DNA from: Escherichia coli
GTDB lineage: Bacteria; Pseudomonadota; Gammaproteobacteria; Enterobacterales; Enterobacteriaceae
Length of the DNA stretch: 64,000 nt
Strand: one strand, 5' to 3'
NCBI RefSeq assembly: GCF_003018235.1
Contig: NZ_CP027437.1
The position numbers were made by a program. The stretch's first letter is position 1. Each line of letters starts with the position of its first letter. Of this stretch, positions 60,001-63,000 are shown piece after piece.

Positions 60001-63000
60001 ACGTTATCGCCGCTGATAGTATCTATCGTTACCTGTGGCGCAACGCCCGCCAGGGTGATGTTATGGCTCGCCGAACCGGTGTTACCAGCGGCATCGGTCA
60101 CCGTAACGACAATATCGTTGGCCCCGCGATCCAGCGTGCGGGTTACCGCCGGGTCCAGCGCCACATTCCAGCTGCCATCTGCCAGCACGATGCCCGTCAG
60201 GACATGAGTGCCCAATTTCACCGTTACCGTATCGCCAGGAGAAGCACCGCTAACTTGTCCGGAGATGATCTGCGCGACGGCCTGCTCGGCATTATTAAGA
60301 ATATCGTCGCCCGCTACGGTATTAACACTGACCACGGGTGCTGAGGTATCTACCGTGAAATTCGCGCTGTGGCTGGTGCTGTTCCCTGCCCGATCGCTGA
60401 CACTGGCATTGACAGCGTAATTACCCTCCGCCAGTGCCTGGACTTCCGTGGCAGGCAGCGTCACTTGCCAGGTTCCGTCGCTACCGACGGTTGCTGTATG
60501 GCTTTTCCCGTTGACGGTCAGTGTTACGGTTTGCCCCGCTTCTGCATTCGACGTGCCGCTCAGTACCAGCGCGACGTTATGTTCCGCAGCACTGATGATG
60601 TTGTCCTGAGCGATGGTGTTGATGGCAAGCGTTGGCGGTTGGGTATCGACCGTTAGCAGCTGCGCGCCGGTGACGGTATTGCCTGTGGCGTCTTTCCCAC
60701 TGACCAGCACCGCCTGATTCCCTTCGCCTAACGCCTGTGCATCGGCGGTCGGCACCTGCACGCTCCAGGCACCGTTAGCCCTACAGTTGTGGTGTAGGTT
60801 TTGCCGTTTAGCGTGACGGTGAGTTCTGTTCCCTGCGCCAGATGGCTACTGGTGCCAGAAAGCGTAAACCCGGCGGCCTGTTCGCTGGCGTTAATAATGT
60901 TATCGCCTGCGGTGGTGGCAACCTGCACGCTGGCCAGACTATTGTCGATGGTTAACGTTATCGAACCGGCGTCAGTGATGGTACTGCCGACAATTTGCAC
61001 CACTGACCCGGTATGTTCACCTGCACTTTGCGTGGGTAACGAGACACTCCAGTGACCGTTGTTGTCTACCTGAGTACTGGCAATAGTATTGCCGTTACTG
61101 TCTTTAATCTGAATAGTCGCCCCCGCCTGCCCGCTGCCGCTAAAGGTTGGCGTGGTATCATCGGTGATGTCATTGGTGGCGAGAATGCCGCGCTGATCGC
61201 CCTGATTATCGGTAACTAAAAATGATGGAGTGGCGTTGCCAGGCTCAGCGGGTGGCGTAGGGTTATTAATCACTTCCGTTTTCGAGTCGCCATCGCCACC
61301 GCTTGCCAGCAGTGCACCAAGCGCGCCACCGCCTACCGCCGCCCCCGCCAGCCATCCCCACGGGAAGGTGCTGGTCTGAGCAACGGTATCAAGAAATGGC
61401 GCAATGCTTTCAATCGCGGTGGTCTGGGCAGTCAGTTCTACGGGGGCTAATCCACCCGCAGCAGTATCGGCAAAGGTGACGTGGGTGAGCTGTTGTCCAT
61501 CGGCAAACACCAGTTCCGATTGTTCAGCGGTATTCGCCGCTTGCAGGAAATAACCGTTGCAGCGGATCTCCGTGCCGTCCTGCATATAGATCAGCAGGTC
61601 ATTTCCTTCACGGACGTAACGCGCAACGGCAGAGGCCTGAGCATGAACCTGCACCACGGAAGGCTCATAAATAACAACCGTGACGTCGCCAGGATTAATC
61701 AGCGTTTGTTTGACGGATGTTTTACGCGAAATAACATCAATAATCAGGCTCATAATGGCATTCCTGATAAATGGCGCACATCCTTAGCGAGTCCATTTAT
61801 CTAAATAAGACAAAGGTAATCACTTAACAACGAGGCATACCTGATATTAATAATGGCAGGATTATTTCAAGTCGGGTAAGTCGTTGTATAAGCCCTGTTT
61901 AATTCCCGCTAATGGAATAAGGTTATTCACCGCAGCGGCATAATTTACGGCGGCGACCCAGCCATCATAATTGGCATTTATTTCAGCCGATTGCGCCTGA
62001 AAGACATCTTGCTCGACGGTTAATAGATCATTCAGACTGCGTTTGCCCAATTTATATTCATTTTGGTACACATCTCGCGTTTTGTGCGCACTTTCGGATT
62101 GTGCTAAACCGGCTTCTTCGCGACCCCGTGCGCCTGTCCAGTTGGCATATGCCACAGACGCTCGTTGCAGCACATCCAGTTTTGCCTGTTCGACCTGCGA
62201 GGCAGAGATTTTTTGTTGCCCTTCAGCCTGTTGCACCTGGGCTGAAACTGCGCCGCCCTGATACAGCGGCGCGTTAACGTTCAGTTGTAGCTGATCATCC
62301 CAATACGAGCGGTCGCTGGTCTGGTAGCGCGTTTTGCCCCCCTGAATACTCAGCGTTGGCCAGTATTGCGCTTTCGTTTTTTTCCACGCCGTACTGGGCA
62401 GACTGGCGTAAGTTTTCTGCCGCCAGCACCAGCGGGATGGACTGGTAATCAATATTTTTCAGCGATACCGACTGCTCGGCTAATTCAGCAGGTGGCGCGG
62501 CTATCGCCTCCGGCTGTACGCCAGTGAGCACCGCCAGTTGCGCTTTGGCGCTTGCCATCTGCGCCTGATATTGCTCCAGCGTTGAGCGCATTCCGGCAAT
62601 GCGCGTCTGGGCCTGTAATTCATCCGACGATGAGTTCAGGCCAGCGTTAGCGCGCAATGCCGCCATGTTGTAGACGTTTTCCAGCGAGTGAATATTGCGT
62701 TGAGCCGCATCGCACAAAGCCTGATAACGACTGACTTCCATATAGGCAGTCGCCGTTTTCTCTGCAACATCGGTTAAGGTTGCCATCAATTTAAAGCGGT
62801 AGCTGTCACGGGCGGCAGTTTGCAGATTGATATCGTTGTTAGTTTTACCAAAGTCATACACCAGCTGTGTCAGGGTTATGCCATACGAAACGTTGTTATC
62901 AAGCCTGCCGCTGGAGTCCGTTTGTCGGGACGGCCCCGCGTTGCCGGTTAATCCAACGTGCGGATACCAGGCACTTTTGGCTTCATCAATTTGCGCTTCG

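What the first reader, a model, noticed from the sequence alone, without database searches (positions are those of the whole stretch)
61454..61465. LapG-type TAAG di-alanine motif about 100 residues into the adhesin N-terminus, with no lapD/lapG in the window
The N-terminal fragment reads ...LTHVTFADTAAGGLAPVELTAQ..., placing a TAAG motif at residues 97-100. LapA-family adhesins are cleaved by the periplasmic protease LapG at a di-alanine TAAG site at about this position, under c-di-GMP control via LapD. A Gly/Ala-rich hydrophobic stretch (FPWGWLAGAAVGGGALGALLASGG) follows, which looks like the N-terminal retention region of T1SS adhesins generally. No lapG/lapD-like genes are linked here.
Basis: inference. 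Interest (0 to 1): 0.6.

Follow-up and report, generated by a model that had tools for sequence, protein, structure and literature searches.

The report
Chance TAAG in E. coli SiiEA adhesin
The TAAG motif is really there, but it sits in a variable loop inside the folded N-terminal "BapA prefix" domain of the already known E. coli giant adhesin SiiEA, and it most likely arose by chance rather than as a LapG protease cleavage site.

Summary
On the minus strand, window 61454-61465 encodes T97-A98-A99-G100 of a giant type I-secreted adhesin. A Gly/Ala-rich hydrophobic stretch follows at residues 130-153. The window has no lapG or lapD.

The gene is siiEA, a BapA-related adhesin that NCBI's PGAP pipeline names and that 958 of 5,426 complete E. 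coli genomes carry. Its N-terminus is a Pfam BapA_N domain.

The LapG-site reading is not supported, for five reasons:
- All four validated LapG substrates I could read share helix, G-x-D-P, 4-9 residues, [TAP]AAG, then Gly-rich. SiiEA has no "DP" in residues 1-185.
- A confident AlphaFold model puts TAAG in a loop between two β-strands inside the fold, about 30 residues before the Gly-rich segment.
- The loop varies among orthologues. TAAG occurs only in Escherichia, and one E. coli allele reads TEAG.
- The short motif occurs at scattered positions in 15 of 100 family representatives.
- No LapG or LapD was found next to 80 enterobacterial homologues, or in any E. coli record sampled.

The adhesin probably works as a plug-retained, LapG-independent T1SS adhesin. 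In this window both siiEA and its TolC-like partner carry private single-base frameshifts. The finding is ordinary.

The parts
61454..61465 (-). TAAG tetrapeptide, residues 97-100 of SiiEA. It lies in a variable surface loop between predicted β-strands 89-94 and 105-107.
61358..61741 (-). BapA prefix-like domain (Pfam PF22783 BapA_N, residues 5-132). The compact β-fold is predicted for residues 1 to about 122. It is the putative periplasmic plug or retention domain.
61295..61366 (-). Gly/Ala-rich, moderately hydrophobic stretch FPWGWLAGAAVGGGALGALLASGG (residues 130-153). It is part of a low-confidence linker of about 55 residues (123-175) between the plug domain and the first Ig-like extender.
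60728..61753 (-). 5' part of siiEA: a 341-aa ORF that ends prematurely because of a 1-base deletion (a missing C) near 60780, relative to the intact allele of strain 118UI.
40083..60761 (-). Remainder of siiEA (a 6,892-aa ORF in the other frame): Ig-like extender repeats, a FG-GAP/VCBS-like region and degenerate RTX repeats.
40095..40403 (-). C-terminal type I secretion target domain (TIGR03661, T1SS_VCA0849 class).
61862..63218 (-). TolC-family outer-membrane channel of the T1SS. It is split into two ORFs (62295-63218 and 61862-62452) by one extra base in the T-run at about 62377-62383.
37917..40079 (-). T1SS ABC permease/ATPase of the LssB/LapB-like subfamily (TIGR03375).
36745..37920 (-). 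HlyD-family T1SS periplasmic adaptor.

Best explanation
The locus is the E. coli siiEA island: a TolC-like gene, siiEA, an LssB-type ABC transporter and a HlyD adaptor, inserted between ybaT and cueR.

The first ~122 residues of SiiEA form a BapA-type prefix domain. By analogy with LapA-type retention modules, I infer that this domain stays folded in the periplasm and plugs the dedicated TolC-like channel. The Gly/Ala-rich linker of about 55 residues would thread through the channel, and the Ig-like extenders would be displayed outside.

TAAG at residues 97-100 is a lineage-specific sequence in a variable loop inside that plug domain. It was produced by ordinary drift in an Ala/Gly-rich loop whose family consensus is roughly [TA]-G-E-A-x-G. 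It is not a LapG cleavage site. Retention of SiiEA is therefore not under LapD/LapG/c-di-GMP control.

Shown: gene identity, domain family, loop variability, absence of the extended LapG context, and absence of lapG/lapD in the window and next to homologues. Inferred: the plug-and-thread retention mechanism.

In this particular sequence, siiEA and its TolC partner each carry a private frameshift. Unless these are sequencing errors, the system is inactive here.
For: Identity:
- NCBIfam adhesin_SiiEA scores 1.5e-153, above its cutoff, and biofilm_BapA_N scores 1e-19.
- Pfam BapA_N covers residues 5-132.
- RefSeq annotates the same gene as siiEA.
- The top 50 AFDB50 Foldseek hits are mostly BapA prefix-like proteins or E. 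coli/Shigella 'adhesin for cattle intestine colonization' entries, and none is labelled as a retention module. Fragments of 117-128 aa superpose at 1.1-2.2 Å.

Structure: the AF2 model built with a 38-sequence alignment has mean pLDDT 81.5. Residues 101-120 score 93-97. Strands 89-94 and 105-107/109-114 flank the loop.

Variability:
- In 50 representatives and 35 named genera the loop differs, for example ADAAVG, TGEASG and AGEVAG.
- TAAG occurs only in Escherichia. E. coli SCPM-O-B-8794 has TEAG, codon GAA.

Context: LapA, MapA, CraA and FrhA all match G.DP.{4,9}[TAP]AA[GV]. SiiEA and 0 of 100 family members match.

Background: 15 of 100 family members have the short motif, at positions 97-150.

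No Lap genes:
- Window.
- 1.37 Mb around 80 enterobacterial homologues.
- Four neighbourhoods with precomputed Pfam hits.
- LapG tblastn against plasmids found 122-126 records, and none of the 100 sampled rows is Escherichia.
- blastn of lapG-lapD against 5,426 E. coli genomes found no match.

Secretion class: LssB-type ABC transporter and a TIGR03661 C-terminal domain.
Against: - The motif matches the published short consensus [T/A/P]AA[G/V] within residues 70-150 (10.1101/198937).
- It is invariant in the six alleles I aligned (the window plus five E. coli genomes), although these are 93-100% identical overall, so this says little.
- Profile comparison suggests the BapA_N core is distantly related to the retention domains of the validated DvhG/LapG substrates DvhA and DVU1545 (hhalign E 7e-4 and 9e-5, probability 27-60%). 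Under that alignment the SiiEA TAAG lies 10 residues after the shared strand, and the true PAAG sites lie 16-17 residues after it. The position is therefore roughly analogous.
- The whole genome of the source strain could not be searched for LapG or LapD at the protein level.
- A surface loop can in principle be cut by a protease.
Confidence: 0.85

Rival explanations
1. Relic or latent site. BapA_N descends from a LapG-regulated retention module, and the loop after the shared β-strand is the degenerate remnant of the cleavage region. In Escherichia it happens to read TAAG again, but nothing cleaves it because the lineage lacks LapG and LapD.
For: hhalign finds weak similarity between the BapA_N core and the DvhA/DVU1545 retention domains. 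The position downstream of the shared strand is roughly analogous. The loop is Ala/Gly-rich throughout the family. PA1874 sets a precedent for a retention module with a degenerate, uncleaved motif (10.1101/198937).
Against: The family consensus in this loop has Glu where the scissile Ala would be. The helix and DP element is absent in every member. About 20 more well-ordered residues follow the loop before the Gly-rich segment. The hhalign probabilities are modest.
Confidence: 0.07
2. Functional LapG-type site. An unlinked LapG/LapD pair, or a divergent BTLCP protease, elsewhere in the genome cleaves SiiEA at A98|A99 and releases it under c-di-GMP control.
For: The short motif and its position fit the published search criteria. 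The T1SS is of the LssB/LapB class, and the C-terminal domain is of the same class as the LapG substrate CraA/VCA0849. lapG and lapD can be unlinked from the adhesin gene, as in the Salinivibrio locus.
Against: No LapG or LapD signal was found in the window, next to homologues, or in the E. coli records sampled. In published assays, E. coli lysates without plasmid-borne LapG served as the no-LapG control. The extended recognition context is missing. The site is not conserved, and there is an A98E allele. It lies inside the fold.
Confidence: 0.03
3. The loop is a target for a different periplasmic protease (not a BTLCP) that trims or releases the adhesin, and TAAG merely marks an exposed loop.
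For: Loop pLDDT is somewhat lower, about 83, which suggests a surface loop. Controlled release has been proposed but not explained for other enterobacterial T1SS adhesins such as SiiE (PMC13090378 discussion).
Against: There is no positive evidence. The loop sequence is not conserved, so a sequence-specific protease is unlikely.
Confidence: 0.03

Closest known systems
E. coli SiiEA ("BapA-related adhesin SiiEA", NCBIfam NF047714; formerly annotated as "adhesin for cattle intestine colonization", e.g. ECUMN_0527)
   Same: It is the same gene. The N-terminus is 93-100% identical to the alleles in 958 of 5,426 complete E. coli genomes. It has the same four-gene island between ybaT and cueR.
   Different: This copy has a private 1-base deletion at about 60780, and its TolC partner has a private 1-base insertion. 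Other strains also carry disrupted copies, but with different lesions.
Salmonella BapA and the BapA_N (PF22783) family of T1SS adhesins
   Same: Shared features are the N-terminal prefix domain, a Gly-rich segment after it, Ig-like extenders and a dedicated TolC/ABC/HlyD system with no lapG or lapD nearby.
   Different: Sequence identity in the prefix domain is only about 27-35%. Gene order differs: tolC lies upstream of siiEA but downstream of bapA-like genes. The loop sequence differs.
LapA/MapA (P. fluorescens), CraA/FrhA (V. cholerae), DvhA/DVU1545 (D. vulgaris): LapG/DvhG-cleaved adhesins
   Same: All are giant T1SS adhesins with an N-terminal folded domain, a Gly-rich linker, an LssB/LapB-type ABC transporter and a VCA0849-type C-terminal secretion domain. 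All have a short [TAP]AAG tetrapeptide about 100 residues in. The core shows weak profile similarity to the DvhA/DVU1545 retention domains.
   Different: SiiEA has no targeting helix and no DP motif before the di-alanine. The motif is not followed directly by Gly-rich sequence. It lies within the fold and is not conserved. There is no LapG or LapD. The strict RTX pattern of the published survey is absent.
P. aeruginosa PA1874 (retention module with the degenerate motif AAAIG, not cleaved by LapG)
   Same: It is a precedent for a T1SS adhesin whose N-terminus retains it at the surface without LapG-mediated release (10.1101/198937).
   Different: PA1874 lives in a LapG-positive organism and was tested experimentally. 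SiiEA has an intact-looking short motif, but no LapG was detected in its host and it has not been tested.

Membership tests
LapG substrate (LapA-like adhesin of the Lap/c-di-GMP system) | Protein larger than 1,000 aa, secreted by a dedicated T1SS with a LapB/LssB-type ABC transporter | tested here: met
   About 7,250 aa once the frameshift is bridged. The ABC transporter matches TIGR03375 at 836.8 bits against a cutoff of 693. TolC-family and HlyD genes flank it.
LapG substrate (LapA-like adhesin of the Lap/c-di-GMP system) | Short di-alanine motif [T/A/P]AA[G/V] within residues 70-150 | tested here: met
   TAAG at residues 97-100. However, 15 of 100 BapA_N family representatives also meet this at scattered positions, and the shuffle expectation is about 7%.
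LapG substrate (LapA-like adhesin of the Lap/c-di-GMP system) | Targeting helix and conserved DP motif (Helix 1, DPxxxLxx) immediately upstream of the scissile Ala-Ala | tested here: not met
   LapA, MapA, CraA and FrhA all match G.DP.{4,9}[TAP]AA[GV]. SiiEA has no DP anywhere in residues 1-185. The residues upstream of TAAG form a β-strand, 89-94.
LapG substrate (LapA-like adhesin of the Lap/c-di-GMP system) | Cleavage site lies in the flexible segment between the retention domain and the Gly-rich, channel-spanning linker | tested here: not met
   TAAG sits in a loop between strands 89-94 and 105-114. Residues 101-120 have pLDDT 93-97. The Gly-rich stretch begins at about residue 130. The Pfam BapA_N envelope runs to residue 132.
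LapG substrate (LapA-like adhesin of the Lap/c-di-GMP system) | Cleavage motif conserved among orthologues | tested here: not met
   TAAG is found only in Escherichia. All other genera differ, and E. coli SCPM-O-B-8794 has TEAG.
LapG substrate (LapA-like adhesin of the Lap/c-di-GMP system) | LapG (PF06035) and LapD (PF16448) encoded in the same genome | not testable with these tools
   Only 64 kb of the genome is available, and it holds neither gene.

Proxies:
- None within 10 kb of 80 enterobacterial homologues.
- No Escherichia among 100 sampled rows of 122-126 LapG-positive plasmid-collection records, although that collection holds two whole siiEA-positive E. coli chromosomes.
- blastn of two lapG-lapD pairs against 5,426 E. 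coli genomes found no match, but this test only detects DNA of about 65-70% identity or more.
LapG substrate (LapA-like adhesin of the Lap/c-di-GMP system) | C-terminal RTX motif as used in the published survey (Dx[L/I]x4GxDx[L/I]xGGx3D) | tested here: not met
   The strict pattern has 0 matches, and only degenerate nonapeptide repeats are present. A TIGR03661 T1SS C-terminal target domain is present.
BapA-related adhesin SiiEA / BapA_N prefix-domain adhesins | N-terminal BapA prefix-like domain and a SiiEA-specific N-terminal signature | tested here: met
   NF047714 scores 508.9 bits against a cutoff of 425, NF033677 scores 70.1 bits against 35, and PF22783 scores 2.9e-19.
LapA/MpIBP/DvhA-type retention module | Sequence or fold similarity of the N-terminal domain to a characterised retention module | tested here: inconclusive
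   - No PDB sequence hit.
- No NCBIfam family named as a retention module at E up to 10.
- Foldseek against PDB found nothing at E up to 0.001.
- hhalign to the DvhA and DVU1545 retention domains gives E 7e-4 and 9e-5, probability 27% and 60%, over 47-57 columns.

The most novel reading that the evidence does not exclude
BapA_N prefix domains are distant homologues of LapG-regulated retention modules, and the Escherichia TAAG loop is a cleavable release site. It would be cut either by a still unrecognised periplasmic protease or by LapG supplied by neighbouring bacteria. This would give enterobacterial T1SS adhesins a regulated release step that has not yet been described.
Probability: 0.04. 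Interest if true: 0.55.

Novelty: already known. Interest (0 to 1): 0.12.

Why it matters
It matters little as it stands. The gene, its domain family and its secretion system are all catalogued, and the motif is best read as coincidence.

The case is a useful caution. The short [T/A/P]AA[G/V] rule used to predict LapG substrates gives about 15% false positives in Ala/Gly-rich adhesin N-termini. It should be used only with the helix-DP context and with LapG and LapD present in the genome.

If the motif were functional, it would extend c-di-GMP-controlled adhesin release to E. coli, where no such mechanism is known.

Tried and rejected
- The word-indexed homologue search with the N-terminus returned only E. 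coli and Shigella fragments. The same search with the 41-aa LapA peptide found nothing, so I could not build a LapA-type retention-module alignment for a profile comparison.
- Single-sequence AF2 gave a useless model, pLDDT 44.7. I replaced it with the alignment-based model.
- The LapG protein search listed only Pseudomonas clusters, so it could not show presence or absence in E. coli.
- A LapD-like hit next to the Pseudocitrobacter orthologue turned out to be the cytoplasmic dosC-dosP pair, not LapD.
- Several papers that would list LapDG-positive genera were not held, or the relevant part was not held.
- I considered reading the Gly/Ala stretch as a transmembrane helix. Its mean Kyte-Doolittle hydropathy of 1.4 is borderline, so I left this open.

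Full report
**What is there**

The finding lies on the minus strand. Window 60728-61753 translates to a 341-aa ORF beginning MSLIIDVISRK. TAAG is residues 97-100, which map exactly to 61454-61465. The stretch FPWGWLAGAAVGGGALGALLASGG is residues 130-153.

The ORF is short only because of a frameshift. Compared with the intact allele of E. coli 118UI and with PCN033, the window lacks one C near 60780. After that point the reading frame continues in the 6,892-aa ORF 40083-60761.

**Identity**

The window is an E. coli-type chromosome. The flanks are the allantoin cluster through cueR on one side and ybaT on the other.

RefSeq annotates the gene as "siiEA: BapA-related adhesin SiiEA". The N-terminus hits NCBIfam adhesin_SiiEA at 1.5e-153 (508.9 bits, cutoff 425) and biofilm_BapA_N. 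Pfam BapA_N covers residues 5-132. The 5' end of the gene is present in 958 of 5,426 complete E. coli genomes.

The island has four genes:
- a TolC-family channel (61862-63218);
- siiEA;
- an LssB-type ABC transporter, TIGR03375 (37917-40079);
- a HlyD adaptor (36745-37920).

The adhesin's C-terminus carries a TIGR03661 (VCA0849-class) type I secretion target domain and degenerate RTX repeats. It has no match to the strict RTX pattern used in the published LapA surveys.

**Is the motif more than chance?**

A composition-preserving shuffle puts [TAP]AA[GV] at residues 70-150 in about 7% of trials and exact TAAG in about 1.2%. Across the whole adhesin of about 7,250 aa, the counts match expectation.

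An exhaustive HMMER search of 1.84 billion representative proteins found 133 relatives of the N-terminus. Of the 100 that are at least 150 aa long, 15 carry the short motif in the 70-150 range, at positions scattered from 97 to 150. Most of these fall in the Gly/Ala-rich segment. The short motif is therefore a common accident in this kind of sequence.

**Conservation**

I aligned 50 representatives and orthologues from 35 loci in about 30 named genera drawn from a scan of 100,044 species genomes.

The flanking elements are strongly conserved: SELVF-x-DG-xx-LTH-x-x-F before the loop and L-x-P-xxxx-I-x-S-I-x-P-F after it. The loop between them varies in sequence and length. Examples are ADAAVG, TGEASG, AGEVAG, AGAALG and AAEAGP.

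TAAG occurs only in Escherichia: in the window, in E. sp. E1V33 and in E. whittamii. E. coli SCPM-O-B-8794 reads TEAG, with codon GAA, which removes the first alanine. The motif is identical in the six alleles I aligned (the window plus five E. coli genomes), but this says little because those N-termini are 93-100% identical overall.

**Structural position**

An AF2 model built with a 38-sequence alignment has mean pLDDT 81.5. Values are 92-98 over most of residues 1-120 and 83 for residues 91-100. Strands 89-94 and 105-107/109-114 flank the TAAG loop. Confidence collapses only at residues 125-151, the Gly/Ala stretch.

The top 50 AFDB50 Foldseek hits are mostly BapA prefix-like proteins or E. 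coli/Shigella "adhesin for cattle intestine colonization" entries. None is labelled as a retention module. Fragments of 117-128 residues superpose at 1.1-2.2 Å, so the compact domain is about 125 residues long and contains the motif.

**Comparison with real LapG sites**

The literature describes the LapG target as a helix, a conserved DP motif, then the scissile Ala-Ala in [T/A/P]AAG, followed by a poly-Gly linker (10.1101/198937; PMC13090378).

The supplementary data of PMC13090378 give these substrate sequences:

| Substrate | Sequence around the site |
|---|---|
| LapA | ...SVEELQQAIAAGVDPTTALES-TAAG-PSAAGTGG |
| MapA | ...IQKAIAAGDDPTKTAEA-TAAG-PGATGG |
| CraA | ...IQQAILDGVDPPTALEA-AAAG-AGAGG |
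| FrhA | ...ILAALEEGADPTALDDLA-PAAG-GLQG |

All four match G.DP.{4,9}[TAP]AA[GV]. SiiEA does not, it has no DP in residues 1-185, and none of the 100 family members matches.

**LapG and LapD**

- tblastn of LapG seeds from P. fluorescens, V. cholerae, D. vulgaris, P. aeruginosa and Salinivibrio, and of LapD, found nothing in the window.
- The same seeds found no LapG in 1.37 Mb surrounding 80 enterobacterial BapA_N adhesin genes. The one LapD-like hit there is the cytoplasmic dosP gene.
- Four neighbourhoods with precomputed Pfam annotation contain only OEP, ABC and HlyD genes.
- LapG tblastn against 72,556 plasmid-collection records found 122-126 positives, mostly Vibrio and rhizobia. None of the 100 rows sampled is from Escherichia, although the collection also holds two whole siiEA-positive E. 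coli chromosomes.
- DNA searches with two lapG-lapD pairs found nothing in 5,426 E. coli genomes. This is a weak test because it only detects DNA of about 65-70% identity or more.
- A canonical BTLCP-linked T1SS locus in Salinivibrio shows the contrast, with lapG and lapD embedded in the secretion operon.

I could not search the source strain's whole proteome.

The T1SS class is the one used by retention-module adhesins: an LssB/LapB-type ABC transporter and a VCA0849-type C-terminal domain.

hhalign also finds weak similarity between the BapA_N core and the retention domains of the validated substrates. SiiEA 25-82 (hhalign profile columns 30-86) aligns with DvhA 16-84 at E 7e-4 and probability 27%. 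SiiEA 40-87 aligns with DVU1545 23-69 at E 9e-5 and probability 60%.

Under that alignment the true PAAG sites lie 16-17 residues after the shared strand. They follow a helix and are followed directly by poly-Gly. In SiiEA, TAAG lies 10 residues after the strand. It follows a β-strand and is followed by about 20 more ordered residues. This supports "works like a retention module", which is an inference. It does not support "is a LapG substrate".

**Conclusion**

TAAG is a real but most likely fortuitous tetrapeptide in a variable loop of the BapA-type plug domain of a known adhesin. The likely mechanism is LapG-independent plug-and-thread surface retention.

In this window the system may be inactive. 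siiEA has a 1-base deletion, and the TolC-like gene has a 1-base insertion in a T-run at about 62377-62383. Neither lesion is shared by any complete E. coli genome, so they are either strain-specific mutations or sequencing errors.

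Noticed in passing
window ~60779-60781 (minus strand, siiEA codon ~325): A single-base deletion (GTAGG-GCTAAC here, GTAGGCGCTAAC in PCN033 and 118UI) splits siiEA into a 341-aa ORF and a 6,892-aa ORF. No complete E. coli genome shares it: the best match is 98.6% identical and carries the extra base.
   Followed up: yes
window ~62377-62383 (TolC-family gene, minus strand): One extra base in a 7-T homopolymer run splits the T1SS outer-membrane channel gene into ORFs 62295-63218 and 61862-62452. It is not shared by any of 5,426 complete E. 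coli genomes, so it is either a sequencing error or a strain-specific inactivation.
   Followed up: yes
L001 (PCN033), L004 (GN25), L005 (O157:H7 F1273), L014 (E. whittamii): siiEA is often disrupted in other strains, each by a different lesion. RefSeq flags it as 'frameshifted' or 'internal stop', and the E. whittamii copy has a stop right after residue ~105. This suggests recurrent decay, or assembly errors in a long repetitive gene.
   Followed up: partly
window 61295-61366; family alignment A3: The hydrophobic Gly-zipper-like segment PWGW[IL]AGAA.GGGA[IL]GALLA is strongly conserved among the closest SiiEA-like proteins. More distant relatives have a hydrophobic Gly-rich segment followed by poly-Gly in its place. 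Mean Kyte-Doolittle hydropathy is 1.4 over 19 residues. Its role is unknown: it could be a channel-spanning linker or could make membrane contact.
   Followed up: partly
SiiEA residues 25-87 compared with DvhA 16-84 and DVU1545 23-69: The BapA_N core motif (Y-x-R-x-G-N-D-L-φ-φ-x-φ-x-D-G ... F-F) resembles the retention domains of the D. vulgaris adhesins (E-K-S-G-N-D-L-V-F-T-F-P-E-G-G ... F-F). This hints that BapA_N and LapG-type retention modules are distant homologues.
   Followed up: partly
L017 4513-8330 (Pseudocitrobacter faecalis); L007 32733-36041: c-di-GMP genes lie next to SiiEA-like loci in other Enterobacterales: dosC-dosP directly upstream of the TolC gene in L017, and two EAL-domain genes (one with GerE) downstream in L007. 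They look like cytoplasmic core genes rather than LapD-like receptors.
   Followed up: partly
L016 (MAG labelled Collinsella sp., contig of 2,326 bases): A contig binned as the actinobacterium Collinsella carries a 98% identical E. coli siiEA 5' end. This is almost certainly bin contamination.
   Followed up: no
plasmid-collection records NZ_CP141089.1 and NZ_CP134663.1 (H91, H92); also NZ_CP131792.1 (L011): Two records of 4.9 Mb filed as E. coli plasmids are evidently whole chromosomes. An 847-kb P. aeruginosa 'plasmid' carries typical chromosomal genes: the flagellar operon, lasR/lasI and lapG-lapD.
   Followed up: no
window 33827-35629 (+): A 600-aa ORF between ybbJ and cueR gives only coiled-coil-type NCBIfam hits (SMC/Rad50-like, far below cutoff). 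The corresponding but shorter gene in PCN033 is annotated as a YadA-like family protein.
   Followed up: partly
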